Notes: generated by a model not told the origin, from the sequence alone. Shown: positions 1 through 60,175, numbered from the stretch's first letter. The stretch is 64,000 nt of DNA from Candidatus Tayloriibacteriota bacterium (GCA_943354385.1 CALRBR010000002.1:4208-68207), one strand, 5' to 3'. A program made the numbers and translations.

Positions 1-105
1 GTAGCTGAGGCGGAGAAATTTTTCACCAGAAAAATATTCGTGCTTTCAAAAAGATGCACCAAGAAAGAATTTTTTCGTTACCCTAGCCAATAAAGTAATC
101 CCCCC

Positions 106-10778: not shown

Positions 10779-10923
10779 AAAGCCATTTTGCCTATTTTTA
10801 CGAAATGGCTCTATAGAGCCAAGCTAAACGGCTAAACGTCACGTTTAGCCGTTTAGCTTGTGTAGCCTGGGCCATAAATTTTCAGTAGAAAATTTATGGG
10901 GTTAAGTTATACCGAGCCTATAA

Positions 10924-11008: not shown

Positions 11009-11010
11009 AC

Positions 11011-14113: not shown

Positions 14114-14355
14114 AAGTAAAAAAGATTTGTGTGTGCACTCTAGTATATACCTTCTGGAAAAATACTGAACTTGTGGAAAAGACACTTTTATGTGCATATG
14201 TTGGGGATATGCTGGGGATATCGAGCGATACTGGTCGCGAAGACGCTGAGCTCACCAGAGCATAGTGCAGGTCGATGGGAATCTGAGCGAAGCGAAGATA
14301 CGAACAATAATAAAATTAAAAATTTCGTAATTCATGGCCAGATACAAAACCATAA

Positions 14356-14439
14356 GGTTGCTTCGCTCTACTGGCCTTCACCGAGGGAAATACCTAGGTG
14401 CTCTCGATTTATATAGTCGATCCGCTCCCTATAAATCGG
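14356..14439. repeat. family-2 repeat (divergent copy)
   Basis: ggttgcttcgctctactggccttcaccgaggg...ctctcgatttatatagtcgatccgctccctataaatcgg. Confidence 0.6.
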
Positions 14440-14479
14440 GGGGTTGATTTTTTAGCCAAGATGGCGTATGCTATCCCCT

Positions 14480-14629: not shown

Positions 14630-14971
14630 ATGCTCCCTAGAGAAAGGAGAGTACATAAAGAAGAGTTTGGAGAGGTCTTGAAAAAAGGCCTTTCTTTTCA
14701 TTCTGCGCATATTTCCTTGAGAGGGATTAAGAAGGACGATGTCTCCCCTAGCAAGTTTTCTGTAGTGGTCTCAAAAAAGTTTGCTATGCTGGCAGTGGAT
14801 AGAAATCTGATTCGGAGACGAGCGATTGCTGTCATTGAAGCACATGTAACCGGTATGAAAAAAGGTATTTCAGCTATTTTTTCTTTTAAAACAGGTGCAT
14901 CTAAACTTTCATCCCAAGAGATAAAGACGGAGATAATCACTTTGCTCAAGCAGTCTGGACTAATTTCGTAA
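14630..14971 (+). CDS. rnpA: ribonuclease P protein component
   Basis: 113-aa basic protein in the canonical rpmH-rnpA-yidC arrangement. Confidence 0.75.
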   Translation: MLPRERRVHKEEFGEVLKKGLSFHSAHISLRGIKKDDVSPSKFSVVVSKKFAMLAVDRNLIRRRAIAVIEAHVTGMKKGISAIFSFKTGASKLSSQEIKTEIITLLKQSGLIS

Positions 14972-15105
14972 ATCCCTCGACTAACGTCTGCTGAGTCGAT
15001 CGTTTGTGATCGACACCTGTAGACGGCCTCTATGAAAGGAAGAACGTAACCCGAATTAATTCCTCCTTTTCTAAAGGAGGTGGTGAGTACTCGAGACGGA
15101 GGATT
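14970..15105. repeat. MITE/REP-like modular repeat (family 1), copy between rnpA and yidC
   Basis: Contains core gctgagtcgatcgtttgtgatcgacacctgtagacggcc and arm attcctccttttctaaaggagg...gagacggaggatttt. Confidence 0.7.
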
Positions 15106-15153
15106 TTATTATTTTGATTGATTACTCAGACTTAGTGCGCTAATATTACCCTT

Positions 15154-15894: not shown

Positions 15895-16067
15895 AAGTAG
15901 GATATATGGACAAAGACTCAACGGCCGACCCCACTGGGGTCGGCCGTTGAGTCTTTGTTATAGGTGGCATGTTTAGTAAGAACCGTTCTTGCAAAGATAG
16001 TAGTGAGGCTAGTCTGACTAGCCTCACTACTACGATAGTCCGACTATCATAAACCTGAATCAATCTT

Positions 16068-17336: not shown

Positions 17337-17338
17337 GT

Positions 17339-18511
17339 CTATGGATTACTGCTAACTTGTGCGTTTGTTAACGCTCTTTCTCGGTCAAGTCCTTTTTGAT
17401 AGGCTTCGTCAATCTTTTTTATTCTTTCACTGGTGTATGCCCTTATCGCTTCTGCCTCAGCGGGGTATGTTTTTAAGAATTTATTATACACTTCGTTACT
17501 TCGTTTGCTGACATCTCTTTTGACATTCCTGATATTTTCCTCGAGCGCCTTTTGGTTGGTTGTTCCACCAGGAACATAAAATCTGGACGCGGCAGTAAGT
17601 GCTTTTTGAATGTCATACTCTTGATCAAGTTTTGTAAGGTCGATAGCTTTTTGGGTCTTGAGCAGGTCGATATTAGAGGTTATTTCCATTGCACCATCAG
17701 GTTCATCTGATTGTTCAATTTCTGATCGTTCTTTTTCTAACTTAAGAATTGCTTCGTTGTAGTTTCTTTCTGTGTTTCTTTTTCCACCGTCGATAATATT
17801 TTTAATTGTTTCCGCATCCTCTTTAGAGGTATCTTTTGAAAAAAACTGAAACACATCATTCTTTATACTTACACTTTCTGCCTTTGCAAGAACGCTGTCT
17901 CTTGCGACGTTGGTTTTACATTTTAACTTCGCGTTATTTGCGGCAACCTCATCTCCTGAGAGTCTTAAATCTTCTGCTTTTTTATTGCATTCGTCGAGCG
18001 CTGCTCTGACAGCGTCGAGCTTTCGATTATTTTCAAGGTATGGATCTACATACTGAATTCGCTTCGCCAATTCTTCTGTTTTTATAGGCTCCAATCCCCC
18101 GCTAAACTCTAGTAGCTGTGGGTTTATGGTATTTAAAATAAGGAAAGAGCCGAGGGCGAGGCCGAGTCCCCAGAGGGCACCCTCGATTTTTTCCTTTCCC
18201 TCGCTTTTTCCCCTGACAGCATCGGTACTCATATACTGGAATCCTCCCCAAATAATCATAAAGACTGCGAAGACACCCGCGAGACCGATACCAATCTTGA
18301 ACATTTCTTTGAGATATGTAGCGATATTTACGCTAGGCTTTGAAACACCACCCACCACCAGAGGCTCGAGGAGGCAGTATTCGTCTTTTGAAGATACACA
18401 CGGTGTTTTTTTCTCAGTAGCTGTTGAACCTGTTGTTTTGGAAACATCTACTTGTGCCTCTACATCTGTTGGAACAACAAAAAAAGCACTGATATAAAAC
18501 ATCACCATCGT
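17339..18511 (-). CDS. membrane protein with VirB2/TrbC-like double hydrophobic hairpin and long coiled-coil C-terminus
   Basis: Signal-like N-terminus, then two hydrophobic helices (IGIGLAGVFAVFMIIWGG / LWGLGLALGSFLIL) separated by a short charged loop, as in T4SS pilins, followed by ~250 aa of coiled coil. Start moved to M94: the upstream 93 codons of the track ORF are encoded by a MITE copy. Confidence 0.45.
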   Translation of the reverse strand, partial: TMVMFYISAFFVVPTDVEAQVDVSKTTGSTATEKKTPCVSSKDEYCLLEPLVVGGVSKPSVNIATYLKEMFKIGIGLAGVFAVFMIIWGGFQYMSTDAVRGKSEGKEKIEGALWGLGLALGSFLILNTINPQLLEFSGGLEPIKTEELAKRIQYVDPYLENNRKLDAVRAALDECNKKAEDLRLSGDEVAANNAKLKCKTNVARDSVLAKAESVSIKNDVFQFFSKDTSKEDAETIKNIIDGGKRNTERNYNEAILKLEKERSEIEQSDEPDGAMEITSNIDLLKTQKAIDLTKLDQEYDIQKALTAASRFYVPGGTTNQKALEENIRNVKRDVSKRSNEVYNKFLKTYPAEAEAIRAYTSERIKKIDEAYQKGLDRERALTNAQVSSNP

Positions 18512-18567
18512 AGCGAGTAGAGTGGATGCGAATACTTTTTTAAGAAAGAGGGTTTTAAGGTTGATAT

Positions 18568-18713
18568 TAATTCCTCCTTTTTTAAAGAAGGCCGTCCACA
18601 GGTGTCGATCACGAACGATCGACACGGCGAGTACTCGAAACGGAGGATTTTGAGCGATGAAAAAATCCCTCCTTCGCAGTAGCGAAGTGCTCCCTTTAGA
18701 AAAGGGAGAATAA
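18568..18713. repeat. family-1 MITE-like repeat
   Basis: Terminal inverted arms aattcctccttttttaaag ... ctttagaaaagggagaataatt. Internal hairpins gtcgatcacgaacgatcgac and ccttcgcagtagcgaagg (CAGTAG loop). Confidence 0.75.
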
Positions 18714-18796
18714 TTCCCGTACAGTCGACATAGAAAAGGGAGAATGGGGAGCGAGTCAGTAAAAAATTTTTTAAAAATAATGTTTTTCATCTTGTA

Positions 18797-19852
18797 TTAA
18801 AAGGCAACCTCTTTACTCTTGGCATCAAAAGATATTGAAAAGTCGTACCCTGCATTTTGGAGAATGTTCCTACTATTTTCTATTCCCACACTTACCCCCA
18901 CACTTCCAGCTTCGGCCTGACCACTCCTCCTTAGAGTGACACGATTTTTCTTTGCTACTCCACTGATATCAGCACCGTTCATGCTCCAGAGATAGTCAAG
19001 GTGTGTTACGGCCGGTGTTTTGCCTGAAAAATAGTATGGCACTGCCACAAAAGTCGCCTCGTCATTGGATAACGTAAATGTATCCAAAAGAGCTTTATTG
19101 TAAAGCACTCCATAGATAGGGTCATCCTGGTAGACCAAAATAGACGGTCTCTCTGGATCGAGCTCAAGATCGGCACTAGCACGAGTCCCGTCAGCCATAG
19201 ACGAAACCTCGACAGAAATCTCAGTCGCCTTTGGCAAGAGGGTTCCTAAAAAAGAAAAGCTGTCCTTACCATACCCTGAGTCACTTCCCTGCACCACTCC
19301 ATCCATACTCCACTTATATACGAGATTTTTAGCGCTCAATTTTTTGCCATTGACCCCCAGCAAATTTGGAATAGCGACCACGGTGACAAAGCCCTGATTG
19401 ACATAGGGTGACCGGCCTTTGTAAAAAGGCGGGGTGTAGCCACTGGTCTCCCAGACGAGGTCGACTTCTCCGGGACGGATGGGAATGTTTTTGCGAATCG
19501 TTCTACCCGAAACAGTAACGATGACAATATCGATAGATGAAGGGGTACCGAGAGACCCCGTGCGGAACTCAAACCGATTCAAACCAATCGCTTTTTGCAT
19601 TTGTTTACCATTTAAAAACCAGGCGATGGTAGCGCGGTCGAGATCGGTAGAATAATTTTTAACAGTAACACTGACGAGTGTATTTGGACCAGGGCGACTC
19701 GGTGACACTTCTATTTCCAAAGCATCGGGGATAGCGGTCATGAGCTGGGCGTGCAAAGGTGTAAGAGGAGTGCAAAACAAAACCCCAGCGAGTAAGGCAA
19801 ATCCAAAGATACAAAATTTTTGAGAAACGAAAGAATAGGAGTTTGACCGCAC
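18797..19852 (-). CDS. secreted hypothetical protein
   Basis: Signal peptide FVSQKFCIFGFALLAGVLFCTPLTPLHAQ. Start set at GTG 19852: no ATG precedes the signal peptide, and the upstream part of the track ORF is MITE-derived. Confidence 0.4.
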   Translation of the reverse strand: MRSNSYSFVSQKFCIFGFALLAGVLFCTPLTPLHAQLMTAIPDALEIEVSPSRPGPNTLVSVTVKNYSTDLDRATIAWFLNGKQMQKAIGLNRFEFRTGSLGTPSSIDIVIVTVSGRTIRKNIPIRPGEVDLVWETSGYTPPFYKGRSPYVNQGFVTVVAIPNLLGVNGKKLSAKNLVYKWSMDGVVQGSDSGYGKDSFSFLGTLLPKATEISVEVSSMADGTRASADLELDPERPSILVYQDDPIYGVLYNKALLDTFTLSNDEATFVAVPYYFSGKTPAVTHLDYLWSMNGADISGVAKKNRVTLRRSGQAEAGSVGVSVGIENSRNILQNAGYDFSISFDAKSKEVAF

Positions 19853-19853
19853 C

Positions 19854-19998
19854 AATTCCTCCTTTTTTAAAGTAGGCCGTCCACAAGTGTCGATCACAAA
19901 AGATCGACACGGCGAGTACTCCAGACGCAGGATTTTGAACGTTGAGAAAATCCCTCCTTCACAGTAGTGAAGTGCTCCCTTTAAAAAAGGGAGAATAA
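19854..19998. repeat. family-1 MITE-like repeat
   Basis: Same architecture. Hairpin ccttcacagtagtgaagg. Confidence 0.75.
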
Positions 19999-20042
19999 GA
20001 AAAATTCTTTGAGAAAGTTTCCATTTCATTGCATATATTTTA

Positions 20043-20549
20043 TCATACCCGTGGTCGGATGTCTTGCATCGATCTCTCGGGTGGCTGTGGAGAATTAATC
20101 GGCATGTTTGTATCTGGAGAAGATGTGTCATTTGGTAATGGAGGTGGACCAGATCTGGGGCTGTTTTGTGCTGGACCTTCTTGACCTTCTTGTCCTTTTG
20201 CATTGGCTTCAGCTACCATTTTACCTCCAGGGACTTTCGCTAGGGCCTCCTCCGCCTTGACGGTGCTCCAGGTAAAGAGTATATCCGCAGTCCACAGTGG
20301 GAGTGCATCTACACCTGGAATCATTTCACCCACAAAAGCGCCAAGCATTGCCAGCATTCTTTTTGGGTTCGCGAGTTTGACACCCTGGGTTCGCAAGAAG
20401 AGTGGAAGCCCGACCCCAATAGCGATGTCTATAAAACGATTAACCACAACCCCAATAGCAAAAAAATCAAGGACAATCTGTAGAATGTCTATTATTACAA
20501 ATAGACCAACGAGCAGTCTCCACCTAGTTTTAGTAAGTCTACAAGCCAT
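20043..20549 (-). CDS. small polytopic membrane protein with Pro-rich tail (pilin/VirB2-like candidate)
   Basis: 168 aa. Two to three TM helices followed by a disordered P/Q/G-rich C-terminus. Confidence 0.4.
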   Translation of the reverse strand: MACRLTKTRWRLLVGLFVIIDILQIVLDFFAIGVVVNRFIDIAIGVGLPLFLRTQGVKLANPKRMLAMLGAFVGEMIPGVDALPLWTADILFTWSTVKAEEALAKVPGGKMVAEANAKGQEGQEGPAQNSPRSGPPPLPNDTSSPDTNMPINSPQPPERSMQDIRPRV

Positions 20550-20578
20550 TTGGGAAGTTTAAAGTTTAAGGATTTTGA

Positions 20579-20724
20579 GTTATTCTCCCTTTGTAAAGGC
20601 CGTCTACAGGTGTCGATCTCGAACGATCGACTCAGCAGACCAGCAGGCTGAGGATTTAGGAGATTCGGGTTTCAAATCCCTCCTTCACAGTAGTGAAGTG
20701 CTCCCTTTAAAAAAGGGAGAATAA
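20579..20724. repeat. family-1 MITE-like repeat
   Basis: Same architecture. Precedes the virB4-like ATPase gene. Confidence 0.75.
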
Positions 20725-20728
20725 CCCA

Positions 20729-22537
20729 CTACTGGTTCGCCAGCTCGTCTTTTGCTCGCTTTATAGCGAGGACCTGCTCGGGGTTGGTGGTGATGATCTG
20801 GTCCTCGGTGTATGAAGCGATCACCTTGATAGCCACATGTTTGAGGCCGACAAAGAAGATCCCCTCTCCAATATCCGACTCGAGCAGGAGATACTTCTCC
20901 TCGTCGGTAAGGTTGAAGGTTTTTTGAAGTATATCCATCGAAGACGGCGACTGCTTGAGCAATATCTGAATAGAAGAGTTGGTAATAATCGGCAATCCGT
21001 AAGGAGATTTTAGAAAGTCGTCCACGTCTTGAGTAATAGTCGCAAGGCCGAGATAGTATTTTCGTCCTCGTTTTGCGAGCCCAAGCAAGAACGATGCGGT
21101 GTCATCGGATTTCATCATCCACCATGCCTCGTCGATGACGAGTAGACGCTTTTTGAGATTCTTGCGGATAGCGTTCCAAATATAGTGGGTGACAATGTAC
21201 ATGGCTACCGGCTTGAGCTCGTCTTCCATGTCGCGGAGAGAAAAGACCACGAATTTTTTATTGATATCTACATTTGAAGGTCGATTGATAAAGCCCGACC
21301 AAGTACCTTTTGTATATTTACTGAGCTTTTGTACCAGCGACTCCCCTCCTTCCATGCCCGCAAGCACGAGCTCAAAGTCAGAGAGAAGTGGTGGCTCAAC
21401 ACTTTTAAAATCAGACTCGGCGGTGATATCTTTGAGTGCGTATGTCTCGGTAATAGCTCGGTCGATGATCGCGTCCTCCTCCTGAGTCAGTCCCCCCATC
21501 ATGATACGGAAAAGGCCCACGAGATTGACAATGTTTGAGCGGAGTACATCCGAGGCCGACTCGTCTTCTCGAGGTATTGGAAGGTCAAAGGGATTTATAT
21601 GGTGTTCTGAAGTAAGTGAAATATTGAAATATCTACCACCCACTGCTTCAGACATGTACTCGTATTCTTTTTCTGGGTCGATGACGATAACTTCAGTTTC
21701 AAACATTAGTGTTCGGAGTATTTCCAGCTTTACGGCGTAGGACTTACCAGAACCGGCTTTGGCAAAGGTTACTGAGTTGTAGTTTTCTAGCAGGAAGCGG
21801 TCAAAAAGAACGAGGCTGGAGTTGTGACGGTTGATACCATATAGAATACCTTTGTCAGAGGTGAGGTCAAATGAGACGAATGGAAAAAGACTTGAAAGTG
21901 GTGAGGAGTTGAGCTTTGAGTGCACATTGAGCTCATCGGTAGCAATAGGTAAAATACTTTTGTACCCTTGCTCCTGCTGGAAAAGGGCGGGCTTGAGGTA
22001 GACGAGCTTTGATTCCAGTACTGATTTTATCTCGGACTCTGTTTTGTCGAGCTCCCCTGCACTATCTCCATATATAGTAATGTATACACCGACGTCAAAA
22101 AGTTTCTCCTGGGCCTGCTGGAGATTGTCGCGAAGCTGTTCGAGATCACGATAAGCGGTGTCGAGCATCGGATCGCGCACGAGACCTTTTTCTTCTCGTA
22201 CATTGATCTGGCTTTGTACCTCGGCTACCTTTTTCTGAAATGTTCGGAGAGCTTTGGCGGTATCTACCGGGTGAATGAAAATAGAAATATTAAAAACTTT
22301 GTCGAGGTTTATGATTGGTGCAAACCAGCTATCGGAAAGAAAGCGAGGGTATGAGATCACGAAAAAAGTGCGGGCAATTTTCTCTCCTAGATTGAGTTCT
22401 TTTGGACTGACTTTCAGCGCAGATGGAGCAATAATGTCTTTTAGCTCGAGTATGCCAGCCTCATATATTTGCTGTGGCAAAATAGATGCGATGGGCACCT
22501 CTTTTTTACTTCCAAATAAATTAGAAAATATTCCCAT
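20729..22537 (-). CDS. VirB4/TrbE/CagE-family type IV secretion ATPase (C-terminal ATPase region)
   Basis: 602 aa. Walker A FAKAGSGKSYAV, Walker B LLVIDEAWWMM, conserved VirB4 motifs (VIDPEKEY, ATQ). Lacks the usual N-terminal ~200 aa. Confidence 0.8.
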   Translation of the reverse strand: MGIFSNLFGSKKEVPIASILPQQIYEAGILELKDIIAPSALKVSPKELNLGEKIARTFFVISYPRFLSDSWFAPIINLDKVFNISIFIHPVDTAKALRTFQKKVAEVQSQINVREEKGLVRDPMLDTAYRDLEQLRDNLQQAQEKLFDVGVYITIYGDSAGELDKTESEIKSVLESKLVYLKPALFQQEQGYKSILPIATDELNVHSKLNSSPLSSLFPFVSFDLTSDKGILYGINRHNSSLVLFDRFLLENYNSVTFAKAGSGKSYAVKLEILRTLMFETEVIVIDPEKEYEYMSEAVGGRYFNISLTSEHHINPFDLPIPREDESASDVLRSNIVNLVGLFRIMMGGLTQEEDAIIDRAITETYALKDITAESDFKSVEPPLLSDFELVLAGMEGGESLVQKLSKYTKGTWSGFINRPSNVDINKKFVVFSLRDMEDELKPVAMYIVTHYIWNAIRKNLKKRLLVIDEAWWMMKSDDTASFLLGLAKRGRKYYLGLATITQDVDDFLKSPYGLPIITNSSIQILLKQSPSSMDILQKTFNLTDEEKYLLLESDIGEGIFFVGLKHVAIKVIASYTEDQIITTNPEQVLAIKRAKDELANQ

Positions 22538-22628
22538 GGGATAATTATAGCTTAAATGTTGACGAGCACGAAATTCTTTCTTGGAGTATATTGTGGTTTT
22601 TCATGAGAGTTGTTGTCATTTTTTTGTA

Positions 22629-22743
22629 TTATTCCTCCTTTTCTAAAGGAGGTGGCTCGTACTCGAGACGGAGGATTTGTGTCTTCTGGTAAAATCCCTC
22701 CTTTCCAGTAGTGAAGGGATCCCTTTAGGAAAGGGAGAATAAT
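22629..22743. repeat. family-1 MITE-like repeat (short form) between the two virB4-like ORFs
   Basis: attattcctccttttctaaaggagg...cctttccagtagtgaagggatccctttaggaaagggagaataat. Confidence 0.75.
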
Positions 22744-22750
22744 ACAGTGC

Positions 22751-23398
22751 CTACGTCAACTGTATTGGCTTTTCCATATCTCCTGGATTGAAAATGCGGT
22801 AGTAGAGCTCGATAATTTCTTCGGTACCGAGCTGTACCACGCGAACACCAGATCTGACGAGTCCCTGCTCTACCACACTCATTCTTTGCTCTAGCTGACT
22901 GCGGTGTTCCTCAAAATCCTCTATTTTCTGCTTACCAGCATCTTCGGATACAGAAGGTTTTTTTCCTAGAAGCTTGCCCATGAAGTTATCTTTTGTTTGC
23001 AGGAGCGGTGGTGAGTATGGGATAACAACAAAAAAGCTTTTGGTCATGATGCTCGAGTTGTCGGTAAAGTTTTTGATAAATTCGATATATTCTCGCGTCT
23101 GAATTTTCATCAAGTCCCCCATTTGTTCCTTGTATCTGTTTTCGAGGAGTGCAATATAGGGTCTGATGTCTAGGCGTTTTGATTGTACAAATATTTGTAT
23201 AGAAAAATCTAGGGAGTTTAATAAATTTTGAAACTGATAGATGATGGAGTTTTGCTCGTCGGTCGATTTGAGAGCGAAGTTTAGAGATGAAGCCATGAGT
23301 ATTCCACGCATACCACCGTCTTTGAGAATGACCACGCCATTTTTGACCTCTTTGATCGGAACAAAATCTTGAGTTGTTTTTGAGCTTGCAGTCGCCAT
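22751..23398 (-). CDS. hypothetical protein, candidate detached N-terminal domain of VirB4
   Basis: 215-aa ORF immediately upstream of the VirB4 ATPase, separated from it by a MITE copy. Combined length (817 aa) matches full-length VirB4. Confidence 0.4.
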   Translation of the reverse strand: MATASSKTTQDFVPIKEVKNGVVILKDGGMRGILMASSLNFALKSTDEQNSIIYQFQNLLNSLDFSIQIFVQSKRLDIRPYIALLENRYKEQMGDLMKIQTREYIEFIKNFTDNSSIMTKSFFVVIPYSPPLLQTKDNFMGKLLGKKPSVSEDAGKQKIEDFEEHRSQLEQRMSVVEQGLVRSGVRVVQLGTEEIIELYYRIFNPGDMEKPIQLT

Positions 23399-23445
23399 AG
23401 GTAAATTATATCATGAGATGTCCAGAAGTATGAAATGCCTTGCAT

Positions 23446-23591
23446 CATTCCTCCTTTTTTAAAAGGAGGCCGTCTACAGGTGTCAATCATAAACGATTGA
23501 CTCTGCTGGTACTCCAGACGGAGGATTTTTAACTCTAACAAAATCCCTCCCTCACAGTAGTGAAGGACTCCCTTTAGAAAAGGGAGAATTA
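23446..23591. repeat. family-1 MITE-like repeat
   Basis: Full-length copy with CAGTAG hairpin cctcacagtagtgaagg. Confidence 0.75.
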
Positions 23592-23620
23592 GTTCTCGTA
23601 AATCTTGCTTCTACCCAAAT

Positions 23621-24061
23621 CTACCTCTGTCTCTTATCCGAATATACACTGTTGTTTATATCCAAACTCCAAGTAAGATCCTTGAGCTTACTGTCGGAAA
23701 GCTTTGGTACAGAAAGCATTGGAATGTCCTCCGTCGATTCGTCGGGGACACCACTTACTACTGGCCGATCATGTTTTTTCCAAATATATAATTTTTCATT
23801 TACCACATATTTGAACGCAGATTCTACCAGAGCAGAAAAAGGCATCGGGCTCGGATTGTAGGGTTTATAAAAGGCTAGAGCTCCTGCAAAAGCGAGGATA
23901 GGTAGGATCAGGATAAGACTAATATAGATAGGCACAGGCAGAAACTGGTACACCATAAAAGACATTCCTAGTCCCCCACCCATATATACAAACTGTTTAA
24001 AGGTCAGCTGGCCAAATATCTTGTCTTCTATTTCTATAAATTGTGGGACTTGGAAGCGCAT
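23621..24061 (-). CDS. VirB3/PrgI-like small membrane protein
   Basis: 146 aa. N-terminal QF.EIEDKIFG..T..QF motif followed by two TM helices. Positioned directly upstream of virB4-like genes, as VirB3 usually is. Confidence 0.4.
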   Translation of the reverse strand: MRFQVPQFIEIEDKIFGQLTFKQFVYMGGGLGMSFMVYQFLPVPIYISLILILPILAFAGALAFYKPYNPSPMPFSALVESAFKYVVNEKLYIWKKHDRPVVSGVPDESTEDIPMLSVPKLSDSKLKDLTWSLDINNSVYSDKRQR

Positions 24062-24105
24062 GGGGCAAGCTTAAAATTAAAAATGCAAAGTTTGAGAGTC
24101 TTGAG

Positions 24106-24160
24106 TTATTCCTCCTTTCCTAAAGGAGCTGGCTCGTAATCGAGACGGAGGATTTAATCT
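24106..24160. repeat. family-1 repeat, left half, flanking DUF559 gene
   Basis: ttattcctcctttcctaaaggagctggctcgtaatcgagacggaggattt. Overlaps the last codons of the DUF559 ORF. Confidence 0.6.
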
Positions 24161-24482
24161 CTCGCACGACACTCTCTATATTATACCTCACATCCGCATC
24201 ACTAAACCTAAGGAATCGGATACCTTTTAATTCTAACATATTCTGTCGAATAATGTCCGCTTCGACTTTACTATCATGACTCACCCCATCTATCTCTATA
24301 GCTAGGTTTAAAGTGTGGCAGTAAAAATCAACGATATATTTATTAACAGGTCTTTGTCGTAAAAATTGATATCCAAGTTTTTTCTTTTTTAACTCTTTCC
24401 ATAATAATACTTCTGCAAGATTGCCTGATTTGCGTAGGTTTTTTGCAAGAGGCTTGAGATTTTTATGATAGATGAGCTTCAT
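24120..24482 (-). CDS. DUF559 (Vsr/PD-(D/E)xK-like) endonuclease-domain protein
   Basis: 120 aa. Characteristic ...YIVDFY...LAIEIDG..H.... pattern. Last ~12 codons are encoded by a MITE arm. Gene is nested between two halves of a MITE copy. Confidence 0.7.
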   Translation of the reverse strand: MKLIYHKNLKPLAKNLRKSGNLAEVLLWKELKKKKLGYQFLRQRPVNKYIVDFYCHTLNLAIEIDGVSHDSKVEADIIRQNMLELKGIRFLRFSDADVRYNIESVVREIKSSVSITSQLL

Positions 24483-24497
24483 TTTTTAATGAAATCT

Positions 24498-24636
24498 AAA
24501 TCCTCCGCCTTTCAGGCACCTCCTTTAGAAAAGGAGGAATAATTCGGAATCCATACCCATTCTCCCTTTCCTAAAGGCCGTCGACAGGTGTCGATCACGA
24601 ACGATCGACTCAGCAGGCTCCAAGCCGAGGGATTTG
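24498..24636. repeat. family-1 repeat, right half plus additional core module, flanking DUF559 gene
   Basis: aaatcctccgcctttcaggcacctcctttagaaaaggaggaataattc followed by ccattctccctttcctaaaggccgtcgacaggtgtcgatcacgaacgatcgac... Confidence 0.6.
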
Positions 24637-24638
24637 AG

Positions 24639-25490
24639 CTAAAAAGTCTCTCGGTAAGGATCTGCTTTATACGGTGCTTGAGGCGCAGAAGGCTTTTGGG
24701 AGATGACTGTGGTGGCCGTGACGACTACTCCACTGAGCTTGGCGCTGACGATGTTGTTGGCTGGGGCGGCGGGTGTTTTGGGAGCAGGTTGAGTTTGAGG
24801 AGGTGTGGGGTAGGAGTGATTGTTTTGCGGGACGATCGCTGGCAGATCATTGTCGTTATGTGCCACAGGGAGATTTGATGGAGCGGGAGAGGTTTTGGCT
24901 ACAGCAGGTGAAGCCACGGTATTATTCCTAGCAGGGATAGTCCTTGCTAGGGTTATGGGAGCTGGGTCCTCGATGTCGTTTTTAGCAAGGACCGTCCTTG
25001 CTAAGGTTGTTGGAGCCGGATCCTCGATGTCGCGGAGGATATCTTCCCTCTTTAGAGTCGCGTGATGCTCGTCGGTCTCGACGGGATGCTCGCTGTCAGG
25101 GGCGAGATTGGAGGTTTTATCGTCTGATAACGTTGTGTTTGTCGTGCCAGCTCCCTCTTCCTCAAGAAGTGGTGCTTGTTCGGCGAGCTTTTTCAATGAT
25201 TCTCTAATGGCTAAGAAAATCTCATTATTTACATCTCTGGCAATCATTTCGGCTACACCCTGAGATACTTCGAGCTTTTTTCTAATACTTGTGACAAAAT
25301 TATTGGGATGAGTGAGTCCGAGCATAACCATATCTGTAGTGGCGTACAAAGCACCAATTTTGTCGACGTGCAAGGAATGTTTTTCACCTATTTTGTTTAT
25401 TTTTGATCCCAGATTAGAATATTCTATCGCCCGCTGTATCTCGGGAGGTAAGGAAGCTATTATTTCTTGTCGAGTTTTTTGTTGAGACAT
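24639..25490 (-). CDS. hypothetical protein with disordered Pro/Ala/Thr-rich C-terminus
   Basis: 283 aa. Structured N-terminal ~110 aa, then low-complexity repeats (EDPAPTTLARTVLAKN twice). 3' end abuts a MITE. Confidence 0.45.
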   Translation of the reverse strand: MSQQKTRQEIIASLPPEIQRAIEYSNLGSKINKIGEKHSLHVDKIGALYATTDMVMLGLTHPNNFVTSIRKKLEVSQGVAEMIARDVNNEIFLAIRESLKKLAEQAPLLEEEGAGTTNTTLSDDKTSNLAPDSEHPVETDEHHATLKREDILRDIEDPAPTTLARTVLAKNDIEDPAPITLARTIPARNNTVASPAVAKTSPAPSNLPVAHNDNDLPAIVPQNNHSYPTPPQTQPAPKTPAAPANNIVSAKLSGVVVTATTVISQKPSAPQAPYKADPYRETF

Positions 25491-30298: not shown

Positions 30299-30340
30299 AA
30301 GGTTGAGTGTGGTCTAAAGCTTAAGGTGGGAGCGTGGTAT

Positions 30341-30443
30341 CCATTCTCCCTTGGTAAAGGGAGTACCCGTAGGGGGAGGGATTTTATAAAATTCAAATCC
30401 CTCGGCCTCTCGGCCACTCCCTTTAGGAAAGGGAGAATAATTC
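30341..30443. repeat. family-1 MITE-like repeat (variant)
   Basis: ccattctcccttggtaaagggag ... ccctttaggaaagggagaataattc. Confidence 0.65.
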
Positions 30444-30500
30444 ACCACCCCTCGGCACTCCTTTATCAAAGCGAAATAAATACCTATTTATTATATCAAA

Positions 30501-31448
30501 TTATTTCAATGCGTGTGCAAGAGTTTTCCACTGTTTTAGATCTAGGTCCTCGGCGCGAGTGTCGATGGCTATACTGAGGGCAGAAAAAGTGTTTTCGAGG
30601 GTAGTTTTTTCGGCAATTGTCTCGAGATTTCTGATTAATTTCTTTCTTTTGTGAGCAAAACCAGCTTTGATGAGTTTGAAAAAGAATTCTTGTGAGTCCA
30701 TTCCTCCTTTTTTAAAGGAGGTGCTCAGTACTCTGGGCGGAGGATTTAAAATCCCTCCCCCTACTGGTACTGAGTCGATCGTTTTTGATTGACACCCGTC
30801 GACGGCCTTTATGAAAGGGAGAATGGGGAGAGATGCTGTCTGTCCCGTTGTGTTACTTTCTATAAAAAACTGATCTGAAATGTTGTCGATAAGCAAAATA
30901 GCTGAGTCAACAGACGGCACAGGATTAAAAGAACCAGCACTGACTGTCTGTATGTATTTTGGAGAGCCGTAGGCTTTTACTGAAAGCGACAAAATACTCT
31001 CTTTTGCATCCTTTGCCACAATTCTTCTCGCCACTTCTTTTTGGAGCATAAGAGTCATGAGAGATGGCTGTGTGTCTGTCTCGAGAAACTTTTGAATGAG
31101 CTCGCCAGTGATGTAGTAAGGTATATTGGCGACGAGTTTGTATTTGCCAGCCAAAATACCTAGGTCTTTTGGGGACATGTCGAGAATATCGCCGTGAATG
31201 AGCTTTAGTTTACCAGAAGTCACTTCCCCTCCAAAACGTTCCGAAAGATGAGGGATCATGCGGTCATCTTTTTCCACTGCGATCACTTGAGCGCCAGTTT
31301 TGAGTAGAAATTCTGTCAGAACCCCTTTTCCAGGACCAATCTCCAGGACAATATCATCTTTTGTCACTCGCGATGCTTCCACCATAGCGTGCACTGCACC
31401 CATAGAATGGAGGAAATTTTGACCGAGAGACTTTTTGGCGGGGATCAT
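30501..31448 (-). CDS. ksgA: 16S rRNA (adenine1518/1519-N6)-dimethyltransferase RsmA/KsgA, carrying a ~43-codon in-frame repeat insertion
   Basis: N-terminal GQNFL, SAM-binding LEIGPGKG, C-terminal FFKLIKAGFAHKRKKLIRNL matching KsgA. Residues ~201-250 are encoded by MITE copy 30698-30827. Confidence 0.85.
   Translation of the reverse strand: MIPAKKSLGQNFLHSMGAVHAMVEASRVTKDDIVLEIGPGKGVLTEFLLKTGAQVIAVEKDDRMIPHLSERFGGEVTSGKLKLIHGDILDMSPKDLGILAGKYKLVANIPYYITGELIQKFLETDTQPSLMTLMLQKEVARRIVAKDAKESILSLSVKAYGSPKYIQTVSAGSFNPVPSVDSAILLIDNISDQFFIESNTTGQTASLPILPFIKAVDGCQSKTIDSVPVGGGILNPPPRVLSTSFKKGGMDSQEFFFKLIKAGFAHKRKKLIRNLETIAEKTTLENTFSALSIAIDTRAEDLDLKQWKTLAHALK
30698..30827. repeat. family-1 MITE-like repeat inserted in frame within ksgA
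   Basis: ccattcctccttttttaaaggagg...gtcgatcgtttttgattgacacccgtcgacggcctttatgaaagggagaatgg. Lies entirely inside the ksgA ORF without a stop. Confidence 0.75.
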
Positions 31449-33742: not shown

Positions 33743-33888
33743 CACGCCAAATTTTATATTTCTTTCTCGGCATATCTTTTGAAAGAGCACGCATACTTTT
33801 TTGGTAAAAAGTTGCTCTGCTCGGCTACCCGCCTGCGTAAGGCTTTTCAAAAGATGCGCCTTCAACGAAATATAAAATTTGGCGTGCT
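33741..33888. repeat. family-3 ~110-bp repeat with 22-bp terminal inverted repeats
   Basis: Core tcttttgaaagagcacgcatacttttttggtaaaaagttgctctgctcggctacccgcctgcgtaaggcttttcaaaagatgcgccttcaacgaa, flanked by agcacgccaaattttatatttc / gaaatataaaatttggcgtgct. Confidence 0.65.
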
Positions 33889-35517: not shown

Positions 35518-35656
35518 CATTATTCTCCCTTTGCAAAGGGAGCACCGACAGTACTCTGGCGCGGAGGGATTTGAAACTTAAATCCCTCGGCCTGGAGCCT
35601 GATGAGTCGATCGTTTGTGATCGACACCTGTAGACGGCCTTTACAAAGGGAGAATA
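35518..35656. repeat. family-1 MITE-like repeat
   Basis: cattattctccctttgcaaagggagc...gtcgatcgtttgtgatcgacacctgtagacggcctttacaaagggagaataga. Confidence 0.75.
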
Positions 35657-35766
35657 GATCACCATCTCAGCTACTCGCTTCCGAAGCCCTTTTAAAAGAT
35701 ATACCTTCAACACATTTCGTATAATTCGAACTAATTTTTTATTTCTCACTATGCTATACTGTCGAA

Positions 35767-42789: not shown

Positions 42790-42920
42790 TCTCCGCAAAA
42801 CTCTTAATCGGCAAATCTTTTGAAAGAGCACACATACTTTTTTGGTAAAAAGTTGCTCTGCTCGGCTACCCGCCTGCGCAAGGCTTTTCAAAAGATTTGC
42901 CTTCAACGAGTTTTGCGGCG
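42790..42920. repeat. family-3 repeat, second full copy
   Basis: ~95% identical core to 33765-33880. Flanked by ccgcaaaactc / gagttttgcgg inverted repeats. Degenerate relatives at 12-78, 2326-2396 and 7996-8062. Confidence 0.65.
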
Positions 42921-44143: not shown

Positions 44144-44232
44144 CCCGATTTATAAGGAGCAAAGCGACTATATAAATCGAGCGGACCGAAGTAGTCTCTT
44201 CGGTCAAGGCCGATAAAGCGAAGCAACCTTAT
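44144..44232. repeat. family-2 repeat (inverted orientation)
   Basis: ccgatttataaggagcaaagcgactatataaatcgagcggaccgaagtagtctcttcggtcaaggccgataaagcgaagcaacc. Confidence 0.7.
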
Positions 44233-44307
44233 TGTATTCAGTCCTAGAGCCATATTATCGGATTTTATTATCTTTCTATCTTCCAATCAAGTACTATCTG
44301 TGGGGGG

Positions 44308-57854: not shown

Positions 57855-58577
57855 ATGAAAATACATCGATTCTATGTGGAGGAGGAAATGGGTAAAAAAG
57901 GTGAAAAAGAGCAGATTTCCCTCACTAACCCCGAGTTATTGCACCAAATGAGCAAAGTTTTTCGGTTTAAGGCTGGTGACACGGTCATTTTGTTTGATGG
58001 CACTGGAGGTGAAACGGTGTGTGAAATTACCTTGCTGACGAAAAAAATCGCTGAGTTTTCTGTAAAAGAAAGGCGAGAAGGTCTCGTGGTTCCAGCTCAA
58101 AAAGTAACGATGTATTTATCTCTCATTAAAAAAGATAACTTTGAGTGGGTATTGCAAAAGGGGACGGAGCTCGGCGTGACTCGTTTCGTGCCAGTCATTT
58201 CGGAAAGAAGTGAGAAAAAAGATTTGAATATGGAGCGGGCGAGAAAAATAGTAGTAGAAGCGACCGAGCAGTCTGGCTGGGCGAGTGTGCCTGAGGTTAA
58301 TGATCCGGTTTTACTTGCTGATGTTCTGGAGTCAAAAGAGTCCATTTCAGAAAATCTGATAGCATTTCATCTTGAAGGAAAACGCTTTGAAAAATCTGTG
58401 CTAGTGGGCATGGCAGGCAAAGCATCTCTTGGAATTCTCATCGGCCCCGAAGGTGGTTTTAGCGAAAAAGAAATTGTCCTTTTCAAATCAAAAAATATCC
58501 CTATTTATTCTCTTGGTAAGCAAACTCTTCGTGCCGAGACGGCAGGTGTCGCTATTGCGAGTCTATTGCTTTTGTGA
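57855..58577 (+). CDS. rsmE: 16S rRNA (uracil1498-N3)-methyltransferase RsmE
   Basis: 240 aa. PUA-like N-terminus and SPOUT knot motifs (LIGPEGGFSEKE). Confidence 0.8.
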   Translation: MKIHRFYVEEEMGKKGEKEQISLTNPELLHQMSKVFRFKAGDTVILFDGTGGETVCEITLLTKKIAEFSVKERREGLVVPAQKVTMYLSLIKKDNFEWVLQKGTELGVTRFVPVISERSEKKDLNMERARKIVVEATEQSGWASVPEVNDPVLLADVLESKESISENLIAFHLEGKRFEKSVLVGMAGKASLGILIGPEGGFSEKEIVLFKSKNIPIYSLGKQTLRAETAGVAIASLLLL

Positions 58578-58598
58578 GTAGGGTAGGCATCTTAGTCC

Positions 58599-58727
58599 AT
58601 TCCTCCTTTTCTAAAGGAGGTGGCTGGTACTCCAGACGGAGGATTTTAAATCCCTCGGCTTGAAGCCTGCTGAGTCGATCGTTTGTGATCGACACCTGTA
58701 GACGGCCTTTAGAAAAGGGAGAATGAA
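58599..58727. repeat. family-1 MITE-like repeat
   Basis: ccattcctccttttctaaaggagg...gtcgatcgtttgtgatcgacacctgtagacggcctttagaaaagggagaatg. Confidence 0.75.
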
Positions 58728-58771
58728 TACAAAACCTCTGCGACCCAAAATTGCGGAGTGTTTTTGAAAGA

Positions 58772-59863
58772 TTATTTCTTACCTACAAGCAAATCAAACA
58801 CCTTTTCATTGACCAACATTGACTCGACGTAGTTGCGAACACGATTGAGATCAGCGTCCGGGTAGTGCTCTAGGACGGCCTTGATTTCTTTCTCAGCTCG
58901 CTCTGGATCGGCCGTAATTTTTTCGGTCTCAGCTATTTTGTGAAGCACGATCTGTAGAGTCGCACGCTTCAGAGCGTCTCCCCTCCATTCTGCACGCATT
59001 TCTTCGCGAGTCTTTTTGAGGTGTTTCATATAATCCTCGGCTTTGATGCCCATACGAGTGATGTCGTCGTTGAACTGAGCTTCCATTTTGTCGAGCTCGG
59101 CTTCTACGATCACCTTTGGCAAGTCAGCCTTAGTTTCCTTGATCACCGCCTCGGCAATCTCAATGCGCTTTTTCTCGTTGGCCTTATGTTCTTTATCTTT
59201 CTGAATATTTTCGGTTACTTTGGCCTTAAAATCAGCAACATCCTTGAAATCGCCGACAGTTTTCACAAAAGCGTCATCAAATACAGGAAGGGATGTCTCG
59301 ACAGCTTTGTCATGATCTTCTTTGCTCATTTTGGCATGGTCGTGGCCGGTGTGGTCGACTCGACTTTGACGGATTTCCATAATAACCGCTTCAATTTCTT
59401 TTTCAGTTACGGTGACTTTCTCTACCGGCTTTGCATTTTCTTTATCGGCAATCTTTTTGTAGTCGGGGAGAGTGACTTCTGGCATCACGGCAGTTTTGAT
59501 TTTAAATGAAAGGTCACTTCCCACGGCGATCTTGGTCAGAGCGATTTCTGGACGGCCAATAGCGTCAATTTTGTGCTCGACAAGCAAGTCTGGGTACATT
59601 TTACTGATAGCGATCTCGGCCATCTCCTCAAGTACTGCCATTTCGCCCACTTTGGTCACGAGCATCTTTTCAGGTATTTTGCCTTTGCGAAAACCGTCTA
59701 TTTCGGCATTTTTACCGATATATTCTAGTGCTTCTTTGCGAAAAGGGGCGAGCTTGTCAGCGCTGATCTCTCCGATGATCTCTATCTCAGAGTCAGGTAA
59801 TTTGGTGGTTTTGATGTTTGAATACAGCACAGCTTTTGGTGTTTTTTCTTCGGTTTTTTTCAT
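58772..59863 (-). CDS. tig: trigger factor (short form lacking a recognisable PPIase domain)
   Basis: Start at MKKTEEK (59863). GFRKGKIP ribosome-binding signature. Long helical C-terminal arms. Upstream 36 codons of the track ORF overlap a family-2 repeat. Linked to clpP as usual. Confidence 0.7.
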   Translation of the reverse strand: MKKTEEKTPKAVLYSNIKTTKLPDSEIEIIGEISADKLAPFRKEALEYIGKNAEIDGFRKGKIPEKMLVTKVGEMAVLEEMAEIAISKMYPDLLVEHKIDAIGRPEIALTKIAVGSDLSFKIKTAVMPEVTLPDYKKIADKENAKPVEKVTVTEKEIEAVIMEIRQSRVDHTGHDHAKMSKEDHDKAVETSLPVFDDAFVKTVGDFKDVADFKAKVTENIQKDKEHKANEKKRIEIAEAVIKETKADLPKVIVEAELDKMEAQFNDDITRMGIKAEDYMKHLKKTREEMRAEWRGDALKRATLQIVLHKIAETEKITADPERAEKEIKAVLEHYPDADLNRVRNYVESMLVNEKVFDLLVGKK

Positions 59864-59907
59864 AGTTTCAACAGTGTAGCGTGTGGGTGGGGAATTGGCA
59901 AGCGCCC

Positions 59908-59996
59908 GCCGATTTGTAGGAAGCGGAGCGACGATACAAATCGAGCGGACCGAAGTACCCCCTTCGGTCAAGGCCGATAAAGCGAAGCAACCTTAT
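59908..59996. repeat. family-2 repeat (inverted)
   Basis: ...gcggagcgacgatacaaatcgagcggaccgaagtacccccttcggtcaaggccgataaagcgaagcaacc. Confidence 0.7.
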
Positions 59997-60007
59997 TGAA
60001 TTTGAAA

Positions 60008-60083
60008 ATCCATCGGCACGGAGCCTTCTGAGTCGATCGTTTGTTGATCGACACCTGTAGACGGCCTTTACAAAGGGAGAATG
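60008..60083. repeat. family-1 repeat fragment (core plus right arm)
   Basis: ctgagtcgatcgtttgttgatcgacacctgtagacggcctttacaaagggagaatg. Adjacent to a family-2 copy. Confidence 0.6.
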
Positions 60084-60175
60084 TATCCCACGAAATTGCT
60101 TCCGCAATTTTGTGGGTCTTTCCTCTTTTCCTTGTTAGTACAAACCCCCAACATGCGATAAAATAGAGATACAAA

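What the first reader, a model, noticed from the sequence alone, without database searches (positions are those of the whole stretch)
30698..30827. MITE-like repeat inserted in frame inside ksgA, adding ~43 residues between the methyltransferase domain and the C-terminal helical domain
The ksgA ORF (30501-31448) reads through a complete family-1 repeat with no stop codon. The inserted segment translates to TGQTASLPILPFIKAVDGCQSKTIDSVPVGGGILNPPPRVLSTSFKKGGMDSQ. Conserved KsgA sequence resumes afterwards (FFKLIKAGFAHKRKKLIRNL), so frame and length were preserved. In E. coli KsgA this position is the short linker between the Rossmann domain and the C-terminal domain. Rickettsia palindromic elements are known to insert in frame into protein loops. 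This looks like the same process in a different lineage, and it implies the element has spread recently enough to hit an essential gene.
Basis: seen in the sequence. Interest (0 to 1): 0.7.

Follow-up and report, generated by a model that had tools for sequence, protein, structure and literature searches.

The report
Palindromic repeat translated inside ksgA
A small palindromic mobile-type DNA repeat sits in frame inside the ribosomal RNA methyltransferase gene ksgA of an uncultured Patescibacteria (CPR) bacterium and adds a floppy 53-residue loop between the enzyme's two domains; relatives carry unrelated palindromes at the same spot, so this linker is a recurrent, tolerated landing site.

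Summary
The ksgA/rsmA ORF (30501-31448, minus strand, 315 aa) reads without a stop through one copy of a dispersed, mosaic palindromic repeat (30695-30828). That copy is 82% identical to an intergenic copy at 58594-58725. A 21-nt module of the family occurs 10 times in the window against 0 expected.

The closest syntenic orthologues (84-88% identity outside the insert) are 262 aa and lack exactly 159 nt, or 53 codons. [quoted passage not shown]

The insert-bearing gene was assembled on 18 contigs from many samples. Across its alleles the core shows 14 synonymous and 1 nonsynonymous change, while the insert shows 0 and 2. The gene is therefore maintained and the insert is only tolerated.

- The same family is in frame in two neighbouring genes, each in a different reading frame.
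- In 118 Patescibacteria KsgAs, 14 of 15 proteins with an internal insertion of at least 15 aa have it at this same linker. These represent at least 7-8 independent expansions.
- Three of those were checked at DNA level, and all are strongly palindromic.

The process is like that of Rickettsia palindromic elements, but the family is new. "Recent" spread and "essential gene" are not supported.

The parts
30501..31448 (-). ksgA/rsmA ORF, 315 aa (16S rRNA A1518/A1519 dimethyltransferase). SAM-binding motif LEIGPGKGVLT and catalytic motif NIPYYIT are intact.
   Evidence: AF2 core pLDDT above 90 and Foldseek matches to KsgA structures with target-normalised TM-score up to 0.89
30699..30857 (-). Lineage-specific in-frame insertion of 159 nt, codons 198-250 (SNTTGQTASLPILPF...FKKGGM). 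The boundary is uncertain by about 2-3 codons, depending on the alignment.
   Evidence: 53-codon gap in the protein and DNA alignments with 262-aa orthologues; residues 202-246 have pLDDT below 50
30695..30828 (.). Copy of the mosaic palindromic repeat ('family 1'). The core bounded by terminal inverted repeats is 30700-30824 (ATTCCTCCTTT...AAAGGGAGAAT, 125 nt). Only 1 of its 6 frames is open, and that is the frame ksgA uses.
   Evidence: folding z = -4.35 as DNA and -3.59 as RNA
30829..30857 (-). Unique 25-29 nt between the repeat and recognisable ksgA sequence (encodes about SNTTGQTAS). Origin unexplained.
   Evidence: no other copy in the window or in the loci held at that point, L001-L033
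30343..30438 (.). Partial family-1 copy in the spacer just downstream of the ksgA stop codon. Terminal-hairpin motifs occur at the same place in relatives L005 and L021, with an 81-nt partial copy in L021.
58594..58728 (.). Closest in-window relative of the ksgA copy. Intergenic, between an RNA methyltransferase gene (57855..58577) and trigger factor (58772..59971).
18565..18713 (-). Family-1 copy in frame near the 5' end of a T4SS-pilin-like gene (17339..18790). Orthologues start MKNxFFKKIxAS. Here MKNIIFKKFF is followed by about 68 extra residues and then LKTLFLKKVFAS.
19852..19998 (-). Family-1 copy in frame after the conserved start codon (ATG at 20029) of the neighbouring 410-aa gene (18797..20029). 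It is absent from the orthologues in L005 and L021.
35520..35660 (.). Intergenic family-1 copy (between the LysM/M23 peptidase and asparagine synthase genes).
20581..20724 (.). Intergenic family-1 copy, downstream of the TraG-like ATPase gene.
22631..22742 (.). Intergenic family-1 copy. The same site is occupied in relative L005.
23444..23591 (.). Intergenic family-1 copy between the PrgI-like and TraC-like genes. L021 has a 43-nt spacer at this position.
24102..24652 (.). Repeat modules on both sides of a DUF559 endonuclease gene (24120..24482). Modules lie at 24102-24170, 24497-24540 and 24549-24652.
14962..15108 (.). Two partial family-1 modules between rnpA and yidC.
59993..60087 (.). Partial family-1 copy, intergenic.

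Best explanation
A short non-coding palindromic repeat landed in the part of ksgA that encodes the flexible linker between the methyltransferase domain and the C-terminal RNA-binding domain. The repeat is 125-150 nt, is built from hairpin modules, has terminal inverted repeats ATTCYCCCTTT/AAAGGGRGAAT, and behaves like a MITE or a REP/BIME element.

Shown here:
- The insertion happened after the split from a sister species at about 87% nucleotide identity and before the present strains diverged.
- With about 25 nt of extra sequence it adds exactly 53 codons with no stop.
- The gene is still under purifying selection.

Inferred:
- The insert is transcribed and translated as part of KsgA and forms a disordered surface loop between two independently folding domains.
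- It has no function of its own. It survives because this linker is the most insertion-tolerant place in the protein.
- Insertions elsewhere, out of frame, or carrying stops are removed by selection. This explains why nearly all other copies are intergenic, and why unrelated palindromes occupy the same linker in other Patescibacteria KsgAs.
For: Insertion of a repeat:
- 82% identity to an intergenic copy, E = 1e-29.
- The 21-nt module occurs 10 times against 0 expected.
- The 262-aa syntenic orthologues have a clean 159-nt gap.

Not an artefact:
- The exact 315-aa protein is on 5 contigs and a 99% variant is on 13, from independent samples and assemblers.
- All further alleles keep the whole insert.

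Gene maintained, insert relaxed:
- Among 11 contigs and 4 alleles the core has 14 synonymous and 1 nonsynonymous sites, and the insert has 0 and 2. Fisher one-sided p is about 0.02 by my own calculation.
- At both insert sites the window allele has moved away from the family consensus.
- The catalytic and SAM motifs are conserved.

Selection for an open frame:
- From the table, intergenic full-length copies have about 0.6 open frames of 6, or roughly 9% per frame (my tally).
- The ksgA copy has exactly one open frame, the one the gene uses.
- The total length is a multiple of 3.

Location and structure:
- The insert falls between B. subtilis KsgA residues 207 and 218.
- In the AF2 model the core has pLDDT above 90 and residues 202-246 are below 50, between helices 193-199 and 247-263.
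- The model matches KsgA structures.
- The site is not loop1, loop12 or loop14, the loops reported to contact rRNA, and a KsgA lacking the C-domain keeps about 50% activity (10.1101/2021.09.15.460497).
- The region is described as a 'flexible linker' in PMC2614427.

Permissive hotspot:
- 14 of 15 KsgAs with an internal insertion of at least 15 aa have it at this alignment column.
- The nearest neighbours of most of them have canonical 11-13-aa linkers.
- Three further linker inserts checked at DNA level (P0105, P0066, P0063) are strong palindromes, as is the one insert at a different site (P0067). One linker insert is a family-1-like element in the opposite orientation, and one has a second, intergenic partial copy.

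No functional peptide:
- No related peptide was found among 1.84 billion representative proteins.
- The three in-frame copies in the window use three different frames.
Against: - There is no direct evidence of expression, translation through the insert, or enzymatic activity.
- About 25-29 nt of the 159-nt gap is not explained by the repeat.
- No target-site duplication and no empty allele within the species were found. Transposition as the mechanism is therefore inferred from copy number and terminal inverted repeats only.
- No transposase lies in the window.
- The contrast between insert and core rests on only two insert substitutions.
- AF2 low confidence can mean 'no information' rather than disorder, because only two rows of the alignment contain the insert.
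- The orientation of the loop relative to the 30S subunit was not computed.
Confidence: 0.8

Rival explanations
1. The insert has been exapted. The extra loop (or its mRNA hairpin) now does something useful, for example contacting lineage-specific rRNA or ribosomal-protein features of CPR ribosomes, or pausing translation between the two domains.
For: - The insert is fixed in every strain sampled.
- Long linkers recur in many Patescibacteria KsgAs, and one clade of six proteins (P0036/50/78/88/105/118) has long linkers in all members.
- The RNA fold is very stable, -54 kcal/mol with z = -3.6.
Against: - Both polymorphisms in the insert are nonsynonymous, while the core is 14:1 synonymous.
- The inserted sequences in different lineages are unrelated in sequence, orientation and frame.
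- No homologous peptide exists elsewhere.
- AF2 gives no structure for it.
- The closest species do without it.
Confidence: 0.08
2. The linker hotspot reflects a DNA target preference of the elements, such as a sequence or structure recognised at this position of ksgA, rather than selection for a tolerant protein site.
For: - 14 of 15 proteins with an internal insertion have it at one alignment column.
- The site lies between two T-runs (AAA NNN TTT TTT ... TTT TTT) in all orthologues.
- Family-1-like elements hit it twice independently, in opposite orientations.
Against: - Elements with unrelated termini (ATTCYCCC... versus GTCATTCC...) use the same site, which argues against one shared specificity.
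- Flanks of the intergenic copies show no common target motif or duplication.
- The insertions fall in a 4-6-residue variable centre of the linker rather than at one nucleotide position.
Confidence: 0.15
3. ksgA has been functionally crippled by the insertion. The ORF is intact, but the C-terminal domain is displaced, so the protein is inactive or only partly active.
For: - The insert separates the two domains by 53 residues.
- The C-domain contributes to positioning h45, and deleting it halves activity.
- ksgA is dispensable in model bacteria (established knowledge).
Against: - After the insertion, the whole gene, including the C-domain, accumulated 14 synonymous and 1 nonsynonymous change.
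- The C-terminal domain is 100% conserved among alleles.
- AF2 packs both domains as in KsgA crystal structures.
Confidence: 0.07
4. The insert is not translated. It is removed as an intron or skipped by translational bypassing, as for T4 gene 60 or the mitochondrial 'byp' elements.
For: - The element is a very stable hairpin inside a coding region.
- CPR bacteria are known for insertions in their rRNA genes (general knowledge).
Against: - An untranslated insert would not need an open frame or a length divisible by 3. Here both hold, although only about 9% of frames in other copies are open (my tally).
- No intron or ribozyme family matches. There are none at Rfam gathering thresholds in the window, and only one sub-threshold hairpin match outside the insert.
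- 159 nt is too short for group I or group II introns.
Confidence: 0.02
5. Assembly artefact, or the segment is ancestral KsgA sequence from which the intergenic repeats derive.
For: Repeats can cause chimeric assemblies.
Against: - The junctions are identical on 18 contigs from separate samples and assemblers.
- Both flanks are ksgA.
- All of the closest orthologues lack the segment.
Confidence: 0.01

Closest known systems
Rickettsia palindromic elements (RPE; Ogata et al. 2000, 2002, as summarised in PMC10969869)
   Same: Both are palindromic repeats of about 100-150 nt without their own gene, dispersed in a reduced genome. Both are often inserted in frame in unrelated conserved genes at positions compatible with protein fold and function. 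Here three in-frame copies occur in 64 kb.
   Different: The host lineage is unrelated (Patescibacteria). No sequence relationship was tested. RPE families each encode a conserved peptide in one frame, whereas the in-frame copies here use three different frames or orientations. The family here is a mosaic of hairpin modules.
Bacterial MITEs found intragenically (ERIC and other enterobacterial small mobile sequences, Correia elements of Neisseria; PMC10969869)
   Same: Small size, terminal inverted repeats, strong secondary structure, many mostly intergenic copies, and occasional in-frame fusion with host ORFs.
   Different: No target-site duplication and no cognate transposase were found here. 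Correia and ERIC insertions in genes are mostly disruptive or strain-variable, whereas this one is fixed and the gene is maintained.
REP / BIME elements (repetitive extragenic palindromes mobilised by RAYT transposases)
   Same: Mosaic combinations of short hairpin modules, typically in spacers at gene ends, and absence of target-site duplications.
   Different: The units are longer and bounded by terminal inverted repeats. No RAYT gene is present in the window. REPs are by definition extragenic.
Lineage-specific inserts of the KsgA/Dim1/mtTFB family (PMC2614427)
   Same: The family tolerates added segments that do not contact the small subunit. The domains are joined by a flexible linker.
   Different: The known inserts lie inside the C-terminal domain (Dim1) or the N-terminal domain (mtTFB) and are ancient and conserved. 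These inserts are young, derived from repeats, and located in the linker itself.

Membership tests
KsgA/RsmA (RrnaAD, PF00398) | Significant match to the family profile and to solved KsgA structures, with the SAM-binding GxGxG motif and the N-[IL]-P-Y catalytic motif | tested here: met
   Pfam E = 5e-45. PDB KsgA hits E = 1e-33. LEIGPGKG and NIPYY are invariant in the alignment. The AF2 model matches KsgA structures with target-normalised TM-score 0.78-0.89.
MITE (miniature inverted-repeat transposable element) | Small size (under about 500 bp) and no coding capacity of its own | tested here: met
   Units are 110-150 nt. Intergenic copies have 0-2 short open frames.
MITE | Terminal inverted repeats | tested here: met
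   ATTCYCCCTTT ... AAAGGGRGAAT at 9 element copies in the window. The termini pair in the predicted folds.
MITE | Multiple dispersed copies in the genome | tested here: met
   About 14 full or partial copies in 64 kb. The 21-nt module occurs 10 times against 0 expected.
MITE | Target-site duplication flanking each copy | tested here: inconclusive
   No consistent direct repeat at the flanks. Comparisons of filled and empty sites with sister species are too diverged to resolve this. Only a degenerate duplication of host codons was seen, around the copy at 18565.
MITE | A related autonomous IS or transposase sharing the terminal inverted repeats | not testable with these tools
   No transposase was found among the window ORFs scanned or in the gene tables of the related loci. 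The rest of the genome is not available.
Rickettsia palindromic elements (RPE) | Palindromic element inserted in frame in protein-coding genes at structurally permissive positions | tested here: met
   In frame in ksgA, in the gene 17339..18790 and in the gene 18797..20029. The ksgA insert lies in a disordered interdomain linker.
Rickettsia palindromic elements (RPE) | Each family encodes a conserved peptide read in a consistent frame | tested here: not met
   The three in-frame copies are read in three different frames or orientations. The peptide has no relatives among 1.84 billion representative proteins.
Rickettsia palindromic elements (RPE) | Sequence similarity to RPE-1..10 consensus; occurrence in Rickettsia or Rickettsiales | not tested
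   No RPE consensus sequences were compared. Named genomes carrying the repeat are a Candidatus Taylorbacteria MAG and a Patescibacteria group MAG, and homologues are named Patescibacteria or Paceibacter.
REP/BIME | Strictly extragenic short palindromes associated with a RAYT transposase | tested here: not met
   Three copies are intragenic. No Y1/RAYT-like gene is present in the window. The mosaic modular build is shared.
Self-splicing intron or known structured RNA | Match to a curated RNA family covering the insert | tested here: not met
   Rfam at gathering thresholds finds only 4 tRNAs in the window. The permissive scan of 30300-30900 gives one sub-threshold hairpin hit outside the insert.

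The most novel reading that the evidence does not exclude
Patescibacteria/CPR genomes have a general regime like that of Rickettsia palindromic elements. Several unrelated palindromic repeat families colonise permissive loops of conserved housekeeping proteins. The KsgA interdomain linker is their preferred landing pad, because of a DNA-level target preference or because the added loop or hairpin has been put to use in CPR ribosome biogenesis. This would make repeat insertion a significant source of new protein segments in these reduced genomes.
Probability: 0.2. Interest if true: 0.7.

Novelty: new member of a known kind. Interest (0 to 1): 0.5.

Why it matters
In-frame colonisation of proteins by selfish palindromes is best documented in Rickettsia. 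I found no report of it for the Candidate Phyla Radiation in two full-text searches.

This case is clean and population-verified, in a universally conserved ribosome-biogenesis enzyme. It comes with two further in-frame copies nearby. At least 7-8 independent expansions have hit the same KsgA linker across Patescibacteria.

Practical consequences:
- Annotators should know that long KsgA linkers in CPR can be repeat-derived. This was shown at DNA level for four lineages.
- The linker is identified as a naturally insertion-tolerant site in KsgA.
- It provides a tractable system for asking how essential-type proteins absorb mobile DNA, using complementation of E. coli ksgA deletions with natural insert-bearing alleles.

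It does not reveal a new kind of mechanism.

Tried and rejected
- Peptide searches for other proteins carrying the translated repeat. The word-indexed search returned nothing at all. The exhaustive HMMER search of 1.84 billion representatives gave two low-complexity chance hits. There is therefore no conserved 'repeat peptide'.
- Target-site duplication and exact element ends. Comparing filled sites with sister species and inspecting all flanks gave nothing consistent. A 5-nt CACAA at both ksgA junctions is spaced 158 nt apart, not 159, and was dropped as chance.
- The 25-29 extra nt. I tested whether it is another repeat module and found no other copy. I also tested whether it is an older linker expansion shared with P0006/L020 and found no nucleotide similarity.
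- Hammerhead-like reading of the CTGATGAG...GTCGATC hairpin. This was rejected because other copies read CTGCTGAG, no GAAA core follows, and Rfam finds nothing.
- DUF559 endonuclease gene flanked by repeat modules as a possible autonomous partner. On all 10 contigs it sits in one and the same context, so there is no sign of mobility.
- A suspected split yebC at 4073-5253. The second ORF is simply ruvC.
- 300-aa members of the KsgA cluster as possible partial deletions of the insert. They are only alternative start-codon calls, and the insert is intact.
- Internal terminator or promoter in the insert. None was found.
- KsgA loop12 as the insertion site. This was rejected because loop12 contains K169 of the B. 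subtilis enzyme, well upstream of the linker at 207-218.

Full report
**Observation**

The minus-strand ORF 30501..31448 encodes a 315-aa protein. It is an unambiguous KsgA/RsmA 16S rRNA dimethyltransferase (Pfam RrnaAD E = 5e-45; PDB KsgA chains E = 1e-33).

The stretch 30695-30828 inside it belongs to a dispersed repeat:
- It is 82% identical over 132 nt to the copy at 58594-58725 (E = 1e-29).
- About 14 full or partial copies occur in the window.
- A 21-nt module of the family occurs 10 times with up to 2 mismatches, against none in 100 shuffles.

The elements are mosaics of hairpin modules bounded by terminal inverted repeats ATTCYCCCTTT...AAAGGGRGAAT. They fold far better than shuffled sequence, with z about -4.4. 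Rfam knows no such family.

**The segment is an insertion**

The nearest homologues (P0002-P0005, 79-88% identical outside the segment) are all 262 aa. Two of them lie in the same gene neighbourhood: UvrD, then KsgA, then a 322-aa protein and a T4SS-like cluster. DNA alignment shows a single clean gap of 159 nt, or 53 codons.

The repeat explains 125-134 nt of that gap. The remaining 25-29 nt (30829-30857) has no other copy in any sequence I held and is unexplained.

The window is chromosomal. It contains dnaA, dnaN, rnpA, yidC, ruvB, ruvC, tyrS and a class A PBP, and it comes from a Patescibacteria genome. The repeat module occurs in only two GTDB species representatives, a Candidatus Taylorbacteria MAG and a Patescibacteria group MAG. 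It occurs in 11 metagenome stretches. The family is therefore narrow.

**It is real and fixed, and the gene is maintained**

The exact protein is encoded on 5 contigs and a 99% variant on 13 more, from different samples and assemblers. These strains are 97-99.9% identical to the window. The sister species without the insert is about 87% identical.

Across 11 gene copies (4 alleles), the 262 core codons carry 14 synonymous and 1 nonsynonymous polymorphisms. The 53 insert codons carry 0 synonymous and 2 nonsynonymous. A third haplotype confirms both insert sites. At both sites the window allele has drifted away from the repeat consensus.

The enzyme is therefore under purifying selection after the insertion. 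The insert looks unconstrained at the protein level, although this rests on only two changes.

**Why the frame is open**

Intergenic full-length copies have on average about 0.6 open frames out of six. This is my tally of the table. The ksgA copy has exactly one, the one the gene uses. Relative to its closest relative, its reading frame switches between the two halves of the element.

An open frame together with a length divisible by three would be expected in only a few percent of random insertions. This is what one expects if the insert is translated and other insertions were purged. It argues against splicing or translational bypass, neither of which would require it.

**Structure**

Against B. 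subtilis KsgA the insert falls between residues 207 and 218. This is the flexible interdomain linker described in PMC2614427.

AlphaFold2 with 118 sequences gives pLDDT above 90 for both domains and below 50 for residues 202-246, between helices 193-199 and 247-263. The model superposes on KsgA structures.

The linker is not one of the loops (loop1, loop12 with K169, loop14) reported to contact rRNA in the 30S-KsgA cryo-EM study. That study also found that KsgA lacking the C-domain keeps about half its activity (10.1101/2021.09.15.460497). I did not compute where the loop points relative to the 30S subunit.

**Other in-frame copies in the window**

Two neighbouring genes of the T4SS-like cluster carry the element just after their start codons.

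- Gene 17339..18790. Orthologues begin MKNxFFKKIxAS. The window protein and two strain variants read MKNIIFKKFF, then about 68 residues that include the element, then LKTLFLKKVFAS. This is a degenerate duplication of the N-terminal codons.
- Gene 18797..20029. The conserved start context of the L005 and L021 orthologues is intact, and the element follows in frame. This 410-aa product is called on 13 contigs. A GTG start preceded by the element's AGGAGG end is an alternative that I cannot exclude.

The three in-frame copies use three different frames or orientations, so no particular peptide is being selected.

**A recurrent hotspot**

In the alignment of 118 Patescibacteria KsgAs, the linker is 11-13 residues in 79 sequences. 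It is 44-76 residues in 13, counting the window and its variant P0001. Fifteen proteins have an internal insertion of at least 15 aa, and 14 of these are at this one column. The exception (P0067) is in another loop.

Most long-linker proteins have nearest neighbours with canonical linkers. This implies at least 7-8 independent expansions of 29 aa or more: the window, P0037, P0063, P0066, P0076, P0098, a clade of six, and P0051/P0095.

I checked four of them at DNA level:
- P0105 carries a 93-nt near-perfect palindrome, GTCATTCC...GGAATGAC (-49.9 kcal/mol).
- P0066 carries a family-1-like element in the opposite orientation to the window's copy.
- P0067, the one at the other site, has a 150-nt structured insert.
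- P0063 carries a 189-nt structured element (z = -4.6). A 65-nt part of it recurs at 86% identity in a nearby spacer.

Elements with different termini share the site, and they fall in a variable 4-6-codon centre rather than at one nucleotide. I therefore favour a permissive-site filter over target specificity, but I could not separate the two.

**Comparison with known systems**

In-frame MITE insertions are known, and RPEs are the extreme case (review PMC10969869). This case works like an RPE. It is not a member of that family: the host is unrelated and there is no conserved encoded peptide.

As a MITE it meets the criteria of size, terminal inverted repeats and copy number. A target-site duplication and a cognate transposase were not found. 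Its modular, duplication-free build also recalls REP/BIME elements. Two full-text searches found nothing on such elements in CPR proteins.

**Verdict**

It is a new member of a known kind.

Its value is raised by population-level verification, by two further in-frame copies in the same 64 kb, and by the recurrent use of the KsgA linker across Patescibacteria.

The claims of recent spread and of an 'essential' target are not supported. Expression, activity and the insertion mechanism remain untested.

Noticed in passing
Proteins P0036, P0037, P0050, P0063, P0066, P0076, P0078, P0088, P0098, P0105, P0118 (alignment A5); loci L047 8641-8733, L048 661-780, L050 4869-5057: Many other Patescibacteria KsgAs have 44-76-residue linkers at exactly the same position as the window's insert. 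Three checked at DNA level are strong palindromes unrelated or only distantly related to family 1. The peptides include motifs such as SVIPAQAGIQ...DSCFRRNDKK.
   Followed up: partly
L049 10301-10450 (protein P0067): The one KsgA with a large internal insert elsewhere (50 aa after core column 101) also carries a highly structured 150-nt segment (-71.9 kcal/mol). It has hairpins resembling family-1 termini (CTCCCTT..AAGGGAGAAT, ATTCCTCCTTT..AAGGAGG).
   Followed up: partly
window 18565-18790 (gene 17339..18790, minus strand): An in-frame family-1 copy lies in the N-terminal region of a T4SS-pilin-like protein. It is flanked by a degenerate duplication of the first ~10 codons (MKNIIFKKFF / LKTLFLKKVF) and preceded by an extra partial element terminus (CTCCCCATTCTCCCTTTTCTA).
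   Followed up: partly
window 19852-20029 (gene 18797..20029, minus strand): An in-frame family-1 copy follows directly after the conserved start codon. The element's end, AAAAAAGGAGGAAT, is a perfect Shine-Dalgarno-like sequence 5-6 nt before a TTG/GTG, so the element may have supplied a new translation start.
   Followed up: partly
window 24102-24652: A 120-aa DUF559/Vsr-like endonuclease gene (24120..24482) is bracketed by repeat modules, and its last ~13 codons and stop codon lie inside one module. The gene is absent at this position in L005 and L021, and L006 has a NYN-domain gene there instead. It is always found in this one context (10 contigs).
   Followed up: partly
window 10921-11012, 14353-14444, 48772-48863 and, in the opposite orientation, 44145-44238, 53927-54020, 59909-60002: A second, unrelated dispersed repeat family of about 92-94 nt (78-92% identity), seen in spacers including those flanking dnaN and dnaA.
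   Followed up: no
window 33761-33868 and 42802-42909: A pair of 108-nt direct repeats, 94% identical and 9 kb apart. Not assigned to either family.
   Followed up: no
window 30343-30438; L005 ~10817-10909; L021 10829-10928: A partial family-1 hairpin unit sits just downstream of the ksgA stop codon in the window. Terminal-hairpin motifs or a partial copy lie at the same place in two sister species. This spacer copy is therefore probably older than the intragenic one, and might act as a 3' stabiliser or terminator-like structure, although no T-run follows it.
   Followed up: partly
window 14962-25490: Family-1 copies are concentrated in and around the T4SS-like cluster (PrgI, TraC-like, TraG-like ATPase, pilin-like genes), with roughly one copy per gene boundary.
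   Followed up: no
L020 (protein P0006), linker region: A relative 77% identical to the window's KsgA has an 11-12-residue non-palindromic expansion (SKEDGGSTI) at the same linker position. This shows that small indels also accumulate there.
   Followed up: yes
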